Source: Thalia democratica (Eukaryota). Taken from it: DNA of 64,000 bases. Shown here in pieces: positions 30,001-51,000 of this stretch. The DNA lies in assembly GCA_965202585.1 (NCBI GenBank), contig OZ241834.1:9982001-10046000 (forward strand), written 5' to 3'. Made by a program: the position numbers. Each line of letters opens with the position of its first letter. Positions within the stretch are counted from its first letter, which is position 1.

Positions 30001-33000
30001 TACAAAAATTTTGTGTTTATTTTGCATTTTAAAACTGCTTTAAATCAAAAATATAAATCAAAAGTAAAATTTTTAGCAAACTCTTCAAAGCCACATTTCT
30101 AAAATTTTTATTTGTACTGTTCAAATTAATTAAAACATATAGTTTAAACAGAATTCATTACGTTACATCTCAAATAATTGTAATTTAAATAGTAACTCTA
30201 GTGTTTATAACTTAATATTTTAATCAATTTAAGTTTTCATTTTTTCGGTAAAAGGTTAGCTGAGTATTTTTAATTTAAATTAAAAAGTAAATACATTACA
30301 TTTTAAGTATACATATTGATACTATGTAATTCTAGAAAAAAGTTGTAGAAAGACTCACTTAAAATGAAAAGATATAAATCAATAGTGAAGAAAATCTTTT
30401 TGAAACTTAAAGTAAACATAACTTTGATGTCTAAACAATTTTTAGTTTTTAGGATTTTTAGTGTGTTTTTTTTAAGTATATTAATTTTAAACTAAAAAAA
30501 TTAATTATGCATTTAAATTGTAAAATGATCAGGTCTTGCAGCAACTAATTATTACTTATAAGTTTTAATTGCGTTTTTAACTTACTAATATAAATCATCA
30601 TATTACACAGCAAAAAAAATCAGCTTTTTAGAATTATATAAAAATAAAATACTTGATATTTAGATAAGATCAATTTTTTACTTTGTGTAACTATTCTGTT
30701 AAATTAACTTTGTTTTAAAAACTTTGTTAAATAAGTGAATATTATATACAAAGTAAAATATTAGTAGTTATCATAGTTGCCATAAATTGGATGTTTTTAA
30801 TTCCAGATCAGGGTTGCACGAGTACTATTATTGACATGCAAACTGAACACAGGACTCTATATGTTAAAAATTGTGTAGATTTTGAAACTATGAAACTAAA
30901 TGTATAAACAGGATTTTCTTACCTAAAAATCTATAAGATTATTGACTATATAAAAAGTATAGTTATCAAATCGTAGTTTCAAAATAAACTCTTTTAATTC
31001 AGCAATTTAATCATCTAAATGAATTCACCACTGATCTTACGTTTTCTACGCAATTAAAAACCATATTAGGATCATTATAAACAAAATTAATCAGTTTGTA
31101 TCCTCCGAAAGCCAACACTCCGAGTAGAACTCCTCCTAAAACCATGCCTTCGCGCTGCGCTTTCAACAAAAACTTGTCTGTTTCCATCAGTTCCTTGAGA
31201 ATTGCGCCTTTCTTGTTTTTGTGTGGAAACGGCGTGTCTGGGACTGGCACCCCTAAAAACTCGCACAGTGGCTTCCAACCTTTTTTGAAGTCCACAATGT
31301 GAAGTTTGTCTTTTGGAGCTTTCTGTGTATGATTATGTTGAGTGCTTTTTTTATAGGTTTTGGAAAAGTAAAAAGCTTTGTTTAACTTAATAATAAACAT
31401 TCCTTATTACATCATGTGTTTATTATAAGATTCTACTTTTTATAAGAAATTGAAACACAGAAAAAAAAAACTAATACATATAAGTTAAGGACGTAAAGCG
31501 GTCTACTAATTACTTAAAAAATTATTATATCTTTAATATTTAACATTTTGAAAGGTAAATTAAGGTGATTTTTTTCTAGTATTTCACTACAACCAACTAA
31601 AACAAATTAGAGCCGAATGACAGTGTAAGTTTATATTACAAAACTTCAAAAGTTCTAGGATGAGACTGAAATAAGTTTCAACTTTTATAAAAGCCTACTA
31701 ATATAATTTATTTAAAACTTTCATGTTTTTATTAAAAATATTAATAGTTAATTAAAACAACTATATAGTAAGAAACCATCCTTTTATTTTAACCTACTTT
31801 AAAGGATTCCTTTTATACGCAATAAATAAGAACAAATAACAGTATACAATGACAAACAAACCTCAAGAACATAAAATTAAAAATTGTTGCATAAAACTAC
31901 AATAAGTTATAACTTTTATAAAGCCTCTCTATTATGATTTATTTAAAATTGTTCTTTTTTTTAAACCTTAGTTTTTAATAAAACAACCATGTAATGGGAA
32001 ACAACAACTTTTAATCTACACTTTGTAAACGATGCCTTAATTATTTATAAGTAAGAACAAATAACAGTATACAATGACAAACAAACCTCAAGAACATAGG
32101 CATTGTGTTTTCTGTATGACTGTCTACATAAAAGTTCACTGTACTTACAACCACCGAACCAATGCTGTGTGAAATTTATTCCAAAACAAATCTTTCCTTA
32201 TAATATGTAAATAATAGTTTAATAAACTTAATTGAGCCTTTTAACTAAAAGAAACTATCTACAAATCACATGTCTTGTTTAAACAAAAGTATTTCGTAAA
32301 GTCAAACGATAAAAGCAGTAAAAGACAAAAATAATTTATCCTGCGCTTCTTTTTAAAAGTAGTACTAGTTTTTAAAGGTATGAAGTAAAAAAAAGATTTA
32401 TGTTAAAAAAACAGCTTATGTTCAGTTTGACATAAAAAATTTATGGAGTGTAAAACATGAATGAATAGTATTTATTAAATTTTGTACCATTTACTTACTT
32501 GCTTTATCTAAGTTAATTGCCTTAAATAAAATATTTAAAAAAAACCTATTTTAAGACCATAACGATTCATGAGCCACAGTCTTGGTGAGATCATCATTAT
32601 AAGTGTAACTAAAGGATGGGTTTGAACTTGAAGCTGTTTGTCAAAACTTTTAAACCATTCATCTTCAGTAGCACGTTGTCCAAATATTATCTAAACAGTT
32701 TTTGTACTAATTTAGAAAATCAAATTCTACATATTTTCATTGAAAAGTGTGTTTAAAAGTATATTTCAAATAACTTAAGGGTATATTTAAACTTTTTGTA
32801 AACAAAAAAATTGTGTGCGTAGTAATACATAAAAAACAAATATTTCCAGGGAGATATATCGCTTATCTGTAGAAAAAGTAATTTACGCAAAAAAATATAT
32901 ATAACTGTAACAAAATATGCATTTTGTTGTATTTTAAATGACCGCAAAGGGACGTTAGACGATTTTATATCAAATTACACAACAAAACTTTAAAAATGTT

Positions 33001-48000: not shown

Positions 48001-51000
48001 TTGGAAGCCACTGTGCGAGTTTTTAGGGGTGCCAGTCCCAGACACGCCGTTTCCACACAAAAACAAGAAAGGCGCAATTCTCAAGGAACTGATGGAAACA
48101 GACAAGTTTTTGTTGAAAGCGCAGCGCGAAGGCATGGTTTTAGGAGGAGTTCTACTCGGAGTGTTGGCTTTTGGAGGGTACAAACTGATTAATTTTGTTT
48201 ATAATGATCCTGATGTGGTTTTTAATTGCGTAGACAATGTAAAATCAGTATTGAATTCATTTAGCTAATTAAATTGCTGAATTAACATAATATTTTTTAT
48301 CTAAAATATTAATTAATAACTAAATTTTTATTATGTATTTAATGCTTTTTATATAAATAAACATTTAGTTTTAAATTATAAATAAAAAAATTATAAAACT
48401 TTTATAAATAATACTTATTTAAGTTTAAAATTGCTATTGTTTACAAAATTTACAGTATAAGTTTATTTTTTAAAACCAAATTTATCATAAAATTAAAAAA
48501 ATTAATAACAAAATTAGTCTTTCTCGTAACTACCTGTTTTCAATAGGTGCATTTTTTCAATTACACTGTATTGATAAAATATATCATTTGTTGTTAAAAA
48601 TAGTTCCTTGTTCTTATTACAAAAACTCTAAATAGGTTCAAATGTTAAATGCACAGCCTAACAAATTACATGTTTTAATATTTACCGAATGGATCAGAAA
48701 CTTTTTTTTAATTACTTATGATTTTTTTTTTAGCGCAAAAGCTACTAACTTGTAAGAATACTAATCGGTGAAAACATATTTATTTATTAAATATTTAACC
48801 GTTTTAATACAAAAAAAAAATACTAACTTATAGCATTTTAGTCGTATTATCTTCAATAACTAATGAACTACCCAACAATTTTCTCAAATCAAAAACCGGA
48901 TCAATGCATAAAAAATCGGTTACATCCGGATCCGGTAATTCATTAGTTTTTACACATAAAAGTTAATATTACATTTGATTTGAAAACTTAAAAGTACTTA
49001 TTAAGAAGCCTCATGTCCGTAATGTCATTTTTGTAACAAAAACAATTGTTTAAAATAAAACTTAGCTTATACCTATTAAAAACTTACACTTCACTTGACT
49101 TTTAGTAAATATTTGCGCTCTTTAAATGTTTTTTCATAAAAACCTTGCTTGTAAATTCTAGTATAATATTAAAAATCATATTAACGGTGACTCACGAATG
49201 ACTTTTTCCCTATAAACCTAACAAATCCAGCCACATTGTAGTGAAACCGGCCCTTTTTACATACAAAATGCTGCCAACCACTGGTTTTATGCTTAAAACA
49301 AATACTTACTGAAGTACATTTGATAAAGTTAGTTCTATATCTATAAAAATCAAATAGAATATAGAAAACAGTACACAAATAAGTAAATATATATATTTTT
49401 TTTTTCTACTAGGTTAGATTTTATATTACTTTTCAGTAAAATTCATAAAAAGTTCAACATAGTTTAAAAAAATAACTGGAGTTGTGTCTATGATTATTAG
49501 AAGCATAAGTTAAACCACCAAAGCAACTTAACTCAAAGCTTTTCAAGTTAGAATTTATCTTAATTTTAAACGGTTTTTATTAACATTTATGTATCTTAAT
49601 TTAAAAAGTAGTTGTTATTTTTCACCTGAAGCTATATTTTTCTCTTATAATTGTTAATTTGTGATTAGCTTCTGAGTTACTTTCGAATGACAGAACAGAA
49701 ATGTCAAGGTACAATGTTAGTAAGTATAGAAATTTTTAATCATAACAATAAGTCACTAATAATTGAATTAATACTGACTATTTTGATTCTGGAGAGCATT
49801 TAAAACTGTAATTTACAAAATAAAGAACGTTAGTTTTAACACAACATACCCAGTGCTAAAATTTTATAATTATTTAAAGCTTTTAAAATATTTTAAATAA
49901 TCTCTTGAAATTTTCTAAAAAATTTTTGATTAATAAAATTTTATTATTAACGGTGTTATAAAATTAGACTTAAGTAAAGAACTATATGTAAGAGAATAAA
50001 CATGGTGACCAGACATCTTATAAATTTAAAAGACTTTATAAGTAATAAAACTAACTTATTTTATATTAAACATAACGTCTTATTTTATTTTTTGTTTTAT
50101 TTATGTATTTGAGATAGAAAAAAAAGGTATTAAACGAGCTTTGTAAAAACTAGTAACTGTTTAATATTAGAAACTTAATCTATACAACTATTGATTACAT
50201 ATTACAACTTTTAAAATACTTATACTGTTGTTTTATTTCAGGTAATATTGCAAATATGTTACTTATTTTTAGCTGGTTTTACGGAGAAACATGCTTAACA
50301 ACTATTTTTAATTTATATCTATTTTTCAATATTTTTTTTAACATGTAACATTAAAATAGCTTTGTTAATACTTGCTCAAATTAAAATCACTTTACGTTTT
50401 TTTATAACTGTTCAACTTTTGCAAAGACGTACACCTTCAACTTTTCATACTTTAAAATTCTCTTATATGCTGAATTAGAATATAAACGTTTTTTTACATT
50501 AAAAGTACTTTACTTTAAATTTTTCAAAATATAAAGTCAATCGTTTGCTGAAAAAGATCCAAGCGAAACAAGTTCACTGGAATATATAATAAAAACAAAT
50601 TTAAACAGTACTCTTTCTTTGTTAAATTAACACATTTTTCTGTGTGTTTACAAGTTAACACACTTTAACGGAGCTATGAAAATTGAATAAATAATAATTC
50701 CAAACTACTATTTCTTCACATTTTATAGCTCCGTTGTAGAAAAATATTGTAGTTTAATAGAGAAAGAGTTCAGTTTGTTATTATTAAGTATTATTTATTA
50801 AAATTAGCATAGCTTTAATTGAACAAACTGTTTGTTCAATATATTAAATTAATAACTAGTCATATTTTAGATAATTTAAAGTCATACGATTATTTTTAAT
50901 GGGTGGTCGTCAGAATGGCACAGCGACACTTTAGCACGGGTCGTCAATTCAGCACGGTGGTCATTTTAGCACGGAGGGTCACTTTTGAACTGCATTACTT

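What the first reader, a model, noticed from the sequence alone, without database searches (positions are those of the whole stretch)
30995..48285. About 17-kb inverted duplication of a FABP + sulfotransferase two-gene cassette: possible lipid/sterol sulfation module
Seen: SULT-A <- FABP-A <- (about 2.7 kb between ATGs) -> FABP-B -> SULT-B. Intergenic DNA and introns are alignable across both arms and both copies of both genes are intact. Established: FABP1/6/10-type proteins carry fatty acids and bile acids, and PAPS-dependent sulfotransferases sulfate small hydrophobic acceptors. Inference: a carrier plus a membrane-anchored sulfotransferase kept together through duplication may be a small animal metabolic cluster (for example sulfation of sterols, alkanols or bile-alcohol-like compounds in gut tissue). 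Co-duplication may also just reflect adjacency.
Basis: partly seen in the sequence, partly recalled or inferred. Interest (0 to 1): 0.68.

Follow-up and report, generated by a model that had tools for sequence, protein, structure and literature searches.

The report
Inverted duplication of FABP–sulfotransferase gene pair
A probable tunicate genome carries two mirror-image copies of a lipid-carrier gene next to a membrane-anchored sulfotransferase gene; both copies are intact and partly kept alike by gene conversion, but nothing yet shows the two genes work together.

Summary
Arm A (30950-39357, genes on the minus strand) and arm B (42080-48331, plus strand) are inverted copies around a unique 2722-nt spacer.

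Each arm carries two genes:
- A 3-exon, 128-aa FABP of the liver/ileal (FABP1/6/10) type.
- About 2 kb downstream on the same strand, a 4-exon, 272-aa Sulfotransfer_4 enzyme with a C-terminal hydrophobic anchor.

Key results:
- Exons are 96.9% identical with no indels; non-coding DNA is about 60-80% identical.
- The FABP copies differ only at 5 synonymous sites. SULT dN/dS is 0.21.
- Perfect tracts of 225 and 237 nt, one running 213 nt into an intron, indicate arm-to-arm gene conversion.
- Arm-specific insertions and deep non-coding divergence exclude a haplotype or fold-back artefact.

Closest named relatives are tunicate proteins (Ciona, Clavelina, Phallusia). The "sulfation module" idea remains untested. 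In the one linkage check possible, the Ciona FABP homolog lies on a different contig from all 7 located Ciona SULT paralogs. This is an ordinary lineage-specific segmental duplication with a speculative but testable link to tunicate alkyl and sterol sulfates.

The parts
30950..39357 (-). Arm A of the inverted duplication (8408 nt): FABP-A then SULT-A, both read on the minus strand
42080..48331 (+). Arm B of the inverted duplication (6252 nt): FABP-B then SULT-B, both read on the plus strand
39358..42079 (.). Unique 2722-nt central spacer. Its two halves do not align with each other (identity 0.41-0.56). It holds the non-homologous 5' flanks of the two FABP copies.
39279..39351 (-). FABP-A exon 1 (73 nt, ATG at 39351)
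38746..38918 (-). FABP-A exon 2 (173 nt)
38202..38342 (-). FABP-A exon 3 (141 nt including the stop); AATAAA 28 nt after the stop
42086..42158 (+). FABP-B exon 1 (73 nt, ATG at 42086)
42509..42681 (+). FABP-B exon 2 (173 nt)
43114..43254 (+). FABP-B exon 3 (141 nt including the stop); AATAAA 29 nt after the stop
35683..35934 (-). SULT-A exon 1 (252 nt): PKTGT 5'-PSB loop and Asp66
32546..32690 (-). SULT-A exon 2 (145 nt): R90...S99 3'-PB motif
32087..32196 (-). SULT-A exon 3 (110 nt): YRKHN motif
31011..31322 (-). SULT-A exon 4 (312 nt including the stop): GWKPLCEFL/FPHKN motifs and the C-terminal hydrophobic anchor
45278..45529 (+). SULT-B exon 1 (252 nt)
46590..46734 (+). SULT-B exon 2 (145 nt)
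47066..47175 (+). SULT-B exon 3 (110 nt)
47957..48268 (+). SULT-B exon 4 (312 nt including the stop)
47164..47388 (+). 225-nt tract 100% identical to 32098-31874 (last 12 nt of SULT exon 3 plus 213 nt of intron 3): inferred gene-conversion tract
   Evidence: no Rfam match; RNA fold z = -1.07
47935..48171 (+). 237-nt tract 100% identical to 31344-31108 (22 nt of intron 3 plus the first 215 nt of SULT exon 4): inferred gene-conversion tract
32853..35452 (.). Arm-A-only DNA in SULT-A intron 1 (intron 2992 nt against 1060 nt in arm B). Includes 41-bp tandem arrays at 33072-33203 and 34522-34697, which lie within 94% identical direct repeats.
45848..46415 (.). Arm-B-only 568-nt palindrome (two 278-nt arms, 95% complementary, 12-nt loop) in SULT-B intron 1; looks like a fold-back or MITE-like insertion
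31648..31873 (.). Arm-A-only tandem copy (76% identity) of 31879-32098, which covers the end of SULT-A exon 3, its donor site and the start of intron 3

Best explanation
This is a lineage-specific, head-to-head (palindrome-like) segmental duplication of two neighbouring genes, probably in a tunicate genome.

The two genes:
- One encodes a 128-aa cytosolic lipid-binding protein of the FABP1/6/10 (liver/ileal bile-acid-binding) clade.
- The other, about 2 kb downstream on the same strand, encodes a 272-aa PAPS-type small-molecule sulfotransferase of the Sulfotransfer_4 family. Its catalytic domain starts at residue 1. It is probably held on a membrane by a C-terminal hydrophobic helix, with the catalytic domain facing the cytosol.

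The history:
- The duplication is old: non-coding DNA is 20-40% diverged and each arm has its own insertions.
- All four genes are kept by purifying selection.
- Stretches around the exons are still being homogenised by arm-to-arm gene conversion.
- The inner breakpoint lies 6 nt upstream of the FABP start codon. The two FABP copies therefore encode the same protein behind unrelated 5' flanks, whereas both SULT copies kept their upstream DNA.

The two genes travel together because they were adjacent when the segment was copied. A functional FABP-to-SULT hand-over is possible but not shown.

Shown: anatomy, family membership, intactness, selection, identity tracts. Inferred: gene conversion, tail-anchor topology, PAPS-dependent activity on a small hydrophobic hydroxyl acceptor.
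For: - Anatomy.
- Gene models: all 10 introns are GT..AG with compatible phases. Database proteins reproduce every junction. P0001 (272 aa) matches SULT-B exons at 84/84, 47/48, 32/36 and 98/102 aligned residues. P0016 matches the FABP exons at 24/24, 52/56 and 45/46.
- Families, exon by exon: PF17784 at 82/83.4 bits (exon 1) and 57.9/58 bits (exon 4) against a cut-off of 22.8; PF14651 at 44.9/45.9 bits (exon 2) against 25.4.
- Solved relatives of the window's own exons: all 23 hits for FABP exon 2 are liver, liver-basic or ileal FABPs. 9 of 10 hits for SULT exon 1 are Cpz8, SgdX2 or schistosome sulfotransferases.
- Full-length relatives: P0016 against ileal LBP gives E = 2.5e-24, and the top 23 of 74 hits are all FABP1/6/10-type. 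P0001 against 9kf1 gives 4.2e-26, 8y9p 1.5e-19 and 4mua 1.5e-13.
- Fold: the AlphaFold2 model of P0001 (pLDDT 85.6) has 19 Foldseek matches at E <= 0.001, all to these same enzymes.
- Conserved residues: both arms keep 50 of 50 columns invariant among 14 tunicate-type paralogs, including K10-T11-G12-T13, D66, R90, S99 and H163.
- Selection: exons 1169/1206 identical with no indel; FABP Sd 5, Nd 0; SULT Sd 16, Nd 14, dN/dS 0.21.
- Gene conversion: perfect runs of 225, 237 and 140 nt. The rest of intron 3 is 317/555 identical. SULT exon 4 has 0 differences in its first 215 nt against 11 in its last 97 (Fisher p = 1.7e-6). The chance of a 213-nt perfect intronic run at the pooled non-coding identity of 0.67 is about 1e-37.
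- Anchor: Kyte-Doolittle 19-mer mean 1.86, 25 residues from the end, on both arms. The P0001 model has a helix at 219-252. Among the 150 best library representatives, 68 of the 93 that carry the GW.PLC.FL motif have a segment with KD19 >= 1.6 after it.
- Separate transcription units: AATAAA lies 28-29 nt after both FABP stops, and the FABP-SULT gap is 2023/2267 nt.
- Family prone to local duplication: 6 of 7 located Ciona paralogs share one 18.3-Mb contig.
Against: - Synonymous divergence (0.06-0.10) far below non-coding divergence could partly reflect selection on synonymous sites, or alignment error in 72% A+T DNA, rather than conversion.
- The 213-nt perfect intronic tract could be a constrained element. 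However, it has no Rfam match and no unusual fold.
- That both genes stayed intact in both arms is also what a functional pair would show, so 'adjacency only' is a default and not a demonstrated negative.
- The Ciona contig comparison is weak. It rests on contig lengths, on one located FABP homolog and on word-seeded searches with few candidates (24 and 28). Ciona may have other FABP paralogs; a survey lists 3 FABPs for C. savignyi (PMC3796463, passages).
- Only 4 of 15 homologs reach KD19 >= 1.6. The Ciona paralogs reach 1.04-1.46, so membrane insertion is not certain for the whole family.
Confidence: 0.7

Rival explanations
1. Functional two-gene sulfation module. The FABP1/6-like carrier brings a hydrophobic alcohol (medium-chain or isoprenoid alkanol, or a polyhydroxysterol) to the membrane-anchored sulfotransferase, or carries the amphipathic sulfate ester away. 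Selection keeps the pair linked, which is why they were duplicated and retained together.
For: - Both genes are intact and under purifying selection in both arms.
- They are co-oriented and 2.0-2.3 kb apart.
- The FABP clade is the one whose solved members include bile-acid binders (ileal LBP, BABP, liver-basic FABP).
- Characterised Sulfotransfer_4 relatives act on small hydrophobic hydroxyl acceptors. The oxamniquine hydroxyl sits at Asp91 of SmSULT (PMC4618941, passages). Cpz8 sulfates phenolic substrates (PMC11677658, passage).
- Tunicates do make alkyl sulfates, found in the hepatopancreas (PMC6780655, passages), and a sulfated steroid sperm attractant (abstracts in the listing).
- A catalytic domain on the cytosolic face would meet both PAPS and a cytosolic FABP (inference).
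Against: - There is no direct evidence of coupling.
- One duplication event copies neighbours regardless of function.
- The located Ciona FABP homolog is on a different contig from 7 of 7 located SULT paralogs.
- The FABP copies lost their shared 5' flank, so co-regulation with SULT is not obviously preserved.
- The FABP has its own poly(A) signal, so the pair is not an operon.
- No further pathway gene was recognised in the window.
Confidence: 0.17
2. Assembly artefact: the two arms are haplotypes, or a fold-back read chimera, wrongly placed side by side.
For: - Tunicate genomes are highly heterozygous (recalled).
- Palindromic structures can arise from chimeric long reads (recalled).
- No read data were available to me.
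Against: - The arms are inverted around a 2722-nt unique spacer, and the window has no N.
- Non-coding identity is only 60-80%. Each arm has private insertions: about 1.9 kb of extra DNA in SULT-A intron 1, a 568-nt palindrome in SULT-B intron 1, and a tandem duplication in A.
- The SULT proteins differ at 13 residues: 12 within whole codons (1, 4, 1 and 6 in exons 1-4) and the split codon at the exon 2/3 border (Ala in B, Gly in A).
- A fold-back chimera would give near-identical arms with no spacer.
Confidence: 0.03
3. The perfect-identity tracts are not gene conversion. They are functionally constrained sequence, for example an intronic enhancer, splicing element or unannotated RNA in SULT intron 3.
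For: - The 225-nt tract abuts exon 3 and includes its donor site.
- Other intron starts are also well conserved, for example the run 42080-42169 that extends past FABP exon 1.
Against: - 213 of 213 intronic positions are identical, while the rest of the same intron is 317/555 identical.
- Even coding sequence under selection shows synonymous changes elsewhere.
- There is no Rfam family and no unusual RNA fold (z = -1.07).
- Arm A carries an older tandem copy of the same tract at only 76% identity. That shows the tract can diverge freely.
Confidence: 0.1

Closest known systems
Schistosoma sulfotransferases (SmSULT-OR, the oxamniquine-activating enzyme; PDB 4mua, 5tiv, 5tiz)
   Same: Same Pfam family (PF17784). 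The relative P0001 aligns over about 200 residues at E = 1.5e-13 to 3e-15. The fold matches at Foldseek E about 1e-10, TM 0.60-0.67. The P-loop-like GxP(K/R)TGT motif, the R...S 3'-phosphate motif and the Asp of TDLP are shared; the Asp aligns with D66 of MDVP. The acceptor hydroxyl hydrogen-bonds to Asp91 in SmSULT (PMC4618941, passages). Equating chain index 93 with Asp91 assumes a 2-residue tag and is my inference.
   Different: The schistosome enzymes are soluble, 253-263 residues in the crystallised chains, with longer inserts between the P-loop and the Asp. They have no C-terminal hydrophobic helix. Identity is only about 20-26%. Their natural substrate was not stated in the passages I read.
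Bacterial Sulfotransfer_4 enzymes Cpz8 (caprazamycin pathway; PDB 9kf1, and 9kf2 with PAP) and SgdX2 ('activating sulfotransferase'; 8y9p)
   Same: These are the best sequence matches among solved structures (E = 4.2e-26 and 1.5e-19) and the best fold matches (TM normalised to target 0.77-0.79). Cpz8 was crystallised with PAP, which means a PAPS-type cofactor site (entry title). It sulfates phenolic small molecules (PMC11677658, passage).
   Different: They are bacterial, soluble, about 200-256 residues, and encoded in antibiotic gene clusters. They have no C-terminal anchor and about 26-30% identity.
Vertebrate FABP6 (ileal lipid/bile-acid-binding protein, gastrotropin), FABP1 (liver) and FABP10 (liver-basic)
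   Same: The relative P0016 (93% identical to the window's exons) aligns end to end with pig ileal LBP at E = 2.5e-24. The top 23 PDB hits are all of these three types. Heart and adipocyte types score E >= 2.6e-7. The window's own exon 2 gives the same ranking. The length is 128 aa. Exons of 73 and 173 nt match the usual first two FABP exons (exon sizes recalled, not tested).
   Different: The gene has three exons, not the four usual in vertebrates, so the last intron is absent (recalled comparison). The ligand is unknown. The two loci encode an identical protein.
Palindromic (inverted) segmental duplications homogenised by arm-to-arm gene conversion, such as the ampliconic palindromes of primate sex chromosomes (recalled)
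   Same: Two inverted arms around a unique spacer, each carrying intact genes. There are tracts of perfect identity against a diverged background.
   Different: This one is far smaller (6-8 kb arms). Overall arm identity is far lower and conversion is patchy, mostly around exons. It is not known to be on a sex chromosome.
Aspergillus oryzae LdrG and LdrH, lipid-droplet-associated proteins with Sulfotransfer_4 domains
   Same: Eukaryotic Sulfotransfer_4 proteins associated with a lipid organelle (bioRxiv 10.1101/2022.11.24.517872; I saw the abstract start in the listing and one supplementary-figure legend).
   Different: Fungal. I made no sequence comparison. No enzymatic activity was described in what I saw.

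Membership tests
Sulfotransfer_4 (Pfam PF17784) PAPS-type sulfotransferase | Match to the family HMM above the curated cut-off (22.8 bits) | tested here: met
   Exon 1 scores 82.0 (A) and 83.4 (B) bits. Exon 4 scores 57.9 and 58.0 bits. Exon 2 alone is below the cut-off (14.2 and 14.9 bits). Exon 3 alone gives no hit. Together the matches cover profile positions 1-135 and 167-214 of 215.
Sulfotransfer_4 (Pfam PF17784) PAPS-type sulfotransferase | 5'-phosphosulfate-binding loop and 3'-phosphate-binding R...S motif (motif names as in PMC11677658, passage) | tested here: met
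   GFPKTGT at residues 7-13 of exon 1 and RATEDEWFKS in exon 2, on both arms. K10, T11, G12, T13, R90 and S99 are invariant in 14 paralogs and kept on both arms.
Sulfotransfer_4 (Pfam PF17784) PAPS-type sulfotransferase | Acidic residue that contacts the acceptor hydroxyl (Asp91 of SmSULT) | tested here: met
   D66 (MDVP) aligns with the Asp of TDLP in 4mua and 6b4z. It is invariant in 14 paralogs and kept on both arms. The numbering offset is my inference.
Sulfotransfer_4 (Pfam PF17784) PAPS-type sulfotransferase | Fold of solved family members | tested here: met
   The AlphaFold2 model of the relative P0001 (pLDDT 85.6, pTM 0.78) has 19 matches at E <= 0.001, all SgdX2, Cpz8 or schistosome enzymes. 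The window's own joined protein was not modelled.
Sulfotransfer_4 (Pfam PF17784) PAPS-type sulfotransferase | PAPS-dependent sulfate transfer to an acceptor | not testable with these tools
   Needs an enzyme assay.
FABP1/6/10 clade of intracellular lipid-binding proteins (Pfam PF14651 Lipocalin_7) | Match to the family HMM above the curated cut-off (25.4 bits) | tested here: met
   Exon 2 scores 44.9 (A) and 45.9 (B) bits. Exons 1 and 3 alone score 20.0-21.6 bits, below the cut-off but in register (profile positions 2-27 and 86-125).
FABP1/6/10 clade of intracellular lipid-binding proteins (Pfam PF14651 Lipocalin_7) | Closer to liver, ileal and liver-basic FABPs than to heart, adipocyte or intestinal types | tested here: met
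   For the window's exon 2, all 23 PDB hits at E <= 0.01 are of these types. For P0016, the top 23 hits have E = 2.5e-24 to 9.9e-17, and the next best is 4.1e-9.
FABP1/6/10 clade of intracellular lipid-binding proteins (Pfam PF14651 Lipocalin_7) | About 125-130 aa, ten-stranded beta-barrel, binding of fatty acid or bile acid | tested here: inconclusive
   The length of 128 aa is met. The fold is implied by end-to-end alignment to solved FABP6 but was not modelled. Ligand binding is not testable here.
Metabolic gene cluster (functionally coupled neighbours) | Linkage conserved in related genomes | tested here: inconclusive
   In Ciona intestinalis the FABP homolog is on a 10,238,876-nt contig. 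The SULT paralogs are on 18,347,025-nt (6) and 9,518,626-nt (1) contigs, so 0 of 7 are shared. This leans against conserved linkage, but it rests on contig lengths and incomplete homolog lists.
Metabolic gene cluster (functionally coupled neighbours) | Co-expression and biochemical coupling of the members | not testable with these tools
   No expression data or assays.
Inverted segmental duplication with arm-to-arm gene conversion | Two collinear arms in opposite orientation around a unique spacer | tested here: met
Inverted segmental duplication with arm-to-arm gene conversion | Identity tracts much longer than the background divergence allows, extending into non-coding DNA | tested here: met
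   Perfect runs of 225 nt (213 intronic) and 237 nt against pooled non-coding identity of 0.67. SULT exon 4 has 0/215 against 11/97 differences, p = 1.7e-6.

The most novel reading that the evidence does not exclude
The tail-anchored Sulfotransfer_4 enzymes that are multiplied in tunicates may be the unidentified enzymes that make tunicate sulfated lipids. These include the C8-C10 and isoprenoid alkyl sulfates of the digestive gland and/or the sulfated cholestane-polyol sperm attractant SAAF. The linked FABP1/6-like protein would be their cytosolic carrier. Together they would form an invertebrate-chordate counterpart of the vertebrate bile-salt (bile alcohol sulfate plus ileal/liver FABP) system. 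The duplicated cassette here would then be a dosage or tissue-specialised expansion of that module. No paper in the searchable library held 'sulfotransferase', 'Ciona' and 'SAAF' together. The 2026 paper on tunicate alkyl sulfatases does not contain the word sulfotransferase.
Probability: 0.1. Interest if true: 0.7.

Novelty: new member of a known kind. Interest (0 to 1): 0.3.

Why it matters
As it stands, this is a clean small example of an inverted segmental duplication. Purifying selection and patchy gene conversion keep two gene pairs alike while the surrounding DNA drifts. One pair (FABP) acquired unrelated upstream DNA, which is useful for studying the regulatory divergence of duplicates.

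The wider interest is conditional. Tunicates make abundant alkyl sulfates and a sulfated steroid pheromone, and in the literature I could search, the sulfotransferases that make them are not named. The family here is a reasonable candidate: it is membrane-anchored, has multiple paralogs in Ciona, and its characterised relatives act on small hydrophobic alcohols and phenols. Its neighbour is a bile-acid-type carrier. That gives a concrete hypothesis which a handful of assays could test.

Tried and rejected
- Third copies: none found in the window.
- Structured RNA or tRNA in the window or in the perfect intronic tract: none. Rfam gave 0 matches, ARAGORN 0 genes, and the fold z-score was -1.07.
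- Symmetry inside the spacer or homology beyond the outer ends: none. Identity is 0.40-0.60.
- Other lipid or sulfur metabolism genes among 32 further ORFs of 56 aa or more (30 of them 75 aa or more): none. 7 of 32 had any Pfam hit: kinase (2), integrase, RNase H, a weak RT hit, a sub-threshold CotH hit and a weak DUF6440 hit.
- Which arm is ancestral: the 5' extension of P0016 compared with both FABP upstream flanks was not informative.
- Literature search for 'SgdX2' returned unrelated funding-number matches. The search for oxamniquine plus 'catalytic base' returned nothing.
- Complex prediction was not used. My main reading does not claim that the proteins bind, and the tool's text advises against jobs for neighbours or carrier-enzyme pairs.
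- The search for related loci and the DNA search on genome contigs were not used. That collection holds only bacteria and archaea, so it cannot test tunicate synteny.
- Spliced models were never joined. Every search with the window's own sequence was exon by exon, and full-length comparisons used the database proteins P0001 and P0016.
- No supplementary files were opened. Table S lists in PMC3796463 might show Ciona FABP loci.

Full report
**Observation**

The window (64,000 nt, 27.7% G+C, no N) contains a true inverted duplication. The repeat finder listed 23 inverted pairs between 28 and 52 kb. Self-blastn gave four collinear minus-strand blocks with E = 0.0 that tile 30950-39357 against 48331-42080. 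In a global alignment of the arms with flanks, identity is 0.66-0.99 inside these limits. It drops to 0.40-0.60 inside 42077/39360 and outside about 48372/30897. The arms are 8408 nt (A) and 6252 nt (B), and the unique spacer is 2722 nt. The FABP start codons are 2734 nt apart.

**Gene models**

Each arm has a 3-exon FABP gene (73 + 173 + 141 nt, 128 codons) and a 4-exon sulfotransferase gene (252 + 145 + 110 + 312 nt, 272 codons). Every intron is GT..AG and the phases fit.

Independent support for the junctions comes from two database proteins found with single exons:
- P0001 (272 aa, from a 1189-nt contig) runs through all three SULT junctions.
- P0016 (146 aa) runs through both FABP junctions.

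P0001 is 100% identical to SULT-B exon 1 but differs from both arms elsewhere. It is a close relative or allele rather than a transcript of either copy.

**What the genes are**

Pfam, exon by exon, gives Sulfotransfer_4 (PF17784) and Lipocalin_7 (the cytosolic FABP family, PF14651) on both arms.

FABP:
- For the window's FABP exon 2, all 23 PDB matches are liver, liver-basic or ileal bile-acid-binding FABPs.
- The full-length relative P0016 matches ileal lipid-binding protein at E = 2.5e-24. Its 23 best hits are all of that clade, far ahead of heart and adipocyte types.

SULT:
- For the window's SULT exon 1, 9 of 10 PDB matches are Sulfotransfer_4 structures.
- P0001 matches Streptomyces Cpz8 (9kf1, 4.2e-26), SgdX2 (8y9p, 1.5e-19) and the schistosome oxamniquine-activating sulfotransferases (about 1e-13 to 3e-15).
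- An AlphaFold2 model of P0001 built on 14 tunicate-type paralogs (pLDDT 85.6) finds only these enzymes at E <= 0.001 (19 matches).
- The 5'-phosphosulfate loop (GFPKTGT), the R90...S99 3'-phosphate motif and D66 are among 50 columns invariant in the 14 paralogs. D66 aligns with the Asp that contacts the acceptor hydroxyl in SmSULT (PMC4618941, passages). Both arms keep 50 of 50 invariant columns.

Anchor:
- The protein starts directly with the catalytic domain.
- It ends with a hydrophobic stretch (MVLGGVLLGVLAFGGYKLI, Kyte-Doolittle mean 1.86) 25 residues from the C-terminus. The P0001 model shows this as a long helix (219-252).
- I read this as a tail anchor with the enzyme on the cytosolic face, where PAPS is made. 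This is an inference.
- The segment occupies the same place in 13 of 15 homologs, but only 4 of 15 reach 1.6.
- Among the 150 best library representatives, 68 of the 93 that carry the GW.PLC.FL motif have such a segment. The anchor is therefore a feature of a wider subfamily and not of this locus.
- The family is large: 7367 representatives at E <= 1e-3, 1986 at <= 1e-10 and 91 at <= 1e-30.

**Organism**

The nearest named proteins are tunicate. The SULT search found 9 Ciona intestinalis paralogs at 55-64% identity among 15 hits; the other 6 are unnamed. The FABP search found Clavelina lepadiformis (61%), Phallusia mammillata (57%) and Ciona intestinalis (56%) among 23 hits; the other 20 are unnamed. 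The window is therefore probably from a tunicate. It is not human.

**Evolution of the duplicate**

- Exons are 1169/1206 identical with no indel. Introns and intergenic DNA are 60-80% identical in aligned columns.
- The two FABP copies differ at 5 synonymous and 0 non-synonymous sites, so they encode the same protein.
- The SULT copies differ at 16 synonymous and 14 non-synonymous sites (dN/dS 0.21), plus one split codon (Ala in B, Gly in A). Half of the amino-acid changes lie in the C-terminal tail.
- Each arm has private events. SULT-A intron 1 holds about 1.9 kb of extra DNA with 41-bp arrays. SULT-B intron 1 holds a 568-nt palindrome. Arm A has a 226-nt tandem copy of the exon 3/intron 3 border at 76% identity.
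- This depth of divergence, the inverted order, the spacer and the absence of gaps rule out collapsed haplotypes or a fold-back chimera.

**Gene conversion**

Synonymous divergence (0.06-0.10) is well below non-coding divergence, and the differences are clustered. There are perfect runs of 225 nt (213 of them intronic), 237, 140, 113 and 90 nt. The rest of SULT intron 3 is 317/555 identical. SULT exon 4 has 0 differences in its first 215 nt and 11 in its last 97 (p = 1.7e-6). A 213-nt perfect intronic run has a chance of about 1e-37 at the pooled non-coding identity of 0.67. The tract has no Rfam match and no unusual fold, and an older tandem copy of it in arm A has diverged to 76%. Recent arm-to-arm gene conversion is the best reading.

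**Breakpoints**

Homology starts 6 nt upstream of the FABP ATG and ends about 63 nt past the SULT stop. The FABP copies therefore have unrelated 5' flanks. Both SULT copies kept about 2 kb of upstream DNA at 78% identity. Both FABP copies keep an AATAAA 28-29 nt after the stop, so FABP and SULT are separate transcription units and not an operon.

**The module hypothesis**

For it:
- Characterised relatives of the enzyme act on small hydrophobic hydroxyl compounds.
- The carrier belongs to the bile-acid-binding FABP clade.
- Tunicates contain alkyl sulfates in the hepatopancreas (PMC6780655, passages) and a sulfated steroid sperm attractant (abstracts in the listing).

Against it:
- Nothing but adjacency links the two genes, and one duplication copies neighbours whatever they do.
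- In Ciona, the located FABP homolog is on a different contig from 7 of 7 located SULT paralogs. This check is weak because it uses contig lengths only and incomplete homolog lists.
- No other pathway gene was recognised in the window.

Proper synteny could not be tested.

In the searchable literature, 'Sulfotransfer_4' occurs in 3 papers, none on animals. No paper holds sulfotransferase, Ciona and SAAF together. The 2026 paper on horizontally acquired tunicate alkyl sulfatases does not mention sulfotransferases.

**Verdict**

This is a real, old, selected and partly homogenised inverted duplication of a FABP1/6-like gene and a tail-anchored Sulfotransfer_4 gene. It is a new member of known kinds.

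Noticed in passing
window 58413-63545 (minus strand): LTR-type retroelement. It has an integrase (58847-60139: Integrase_H2C2 plus rve), an RNase H (60489-61004), a weak RT match (61306-61782) and a 367-aa gag-like ORF (62308-63408). It is flanked by 112-nt direct repeats 97% identical (58413-58524 and 63434-63545). The pol region is split over several ORFs.
   Followed up: partly
window 57047-57968 (minus strand): Two adjacent ORFs carry a Ser/Thr protein kinase domain (Pkinase, E = 1e-21 and 1e-15). This is a neighbouring host gene unrelated to the cassette.
   Followed up: partly
window 45848-46415: A 568-nt near-perfect palindrome (278-nt arms, 95% complementary, 12-nt loop), present only in SULT-B intron 1. 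It looks like a fold-back or MITE-like insertion. No other copy is in the window.
   Followed up: partly
window 33010-33203 and 34458-34697: Two direct repeats 94% identical, each built of 41-bp tandem units (3.2 and 4.3 copies). They bracket about 1.25 kb of arm-A-only DNA in SULT-A intron 1. Probably a repeat-bounded mobile element.
   Followed up: partly
window 31648-31873 vs 31879-32098: Tandem duplication (76% identity) in arm A. It copies the last 12 nt of SULT-A exon 3, its GT donor and the start of intron 3, so there is a second, cryptic donor-like site in the intron.
   Followed up: partly
window 2-829 and 1167-1359 vs 25358-27090: Dispersed direct repeat of about 0.7-1.3 kb at 79-84% identity, itself tandemly doubled at 25595-26063 / 26084-26550. 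Content unknown.
   Followed up: no
window 3218-3382, 50523-50669, 52148-52311; 3366-3455: A short (about 150-nt) interspersed repeat in three copies (79-89% identity), and a 90-nt palindrome at 3366-3455. MITE-like.
   Followed up: no
window 4193-4552 (plus strand): ORF with a sub-threshold match to the CotH kinase family (22.8 bits against a cut-off of 23.8, E = 7.6e-5). It lies in a slightly G+C-richer stretch (35.5% for 4001-6000). Possibly an exon of an unrecognised gene.
   Followed up: no
window 39352-39417 and 42020-42085: Both FABP start codons are directly preceded by ..TTCAAG. In arm A this follows a T-run, so it looks like a splice acceptor. Tunicates use spliced-leader trans-splicing (recalled), and the duplication's inner breakpoint sits exactly here.
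   Followed up: no
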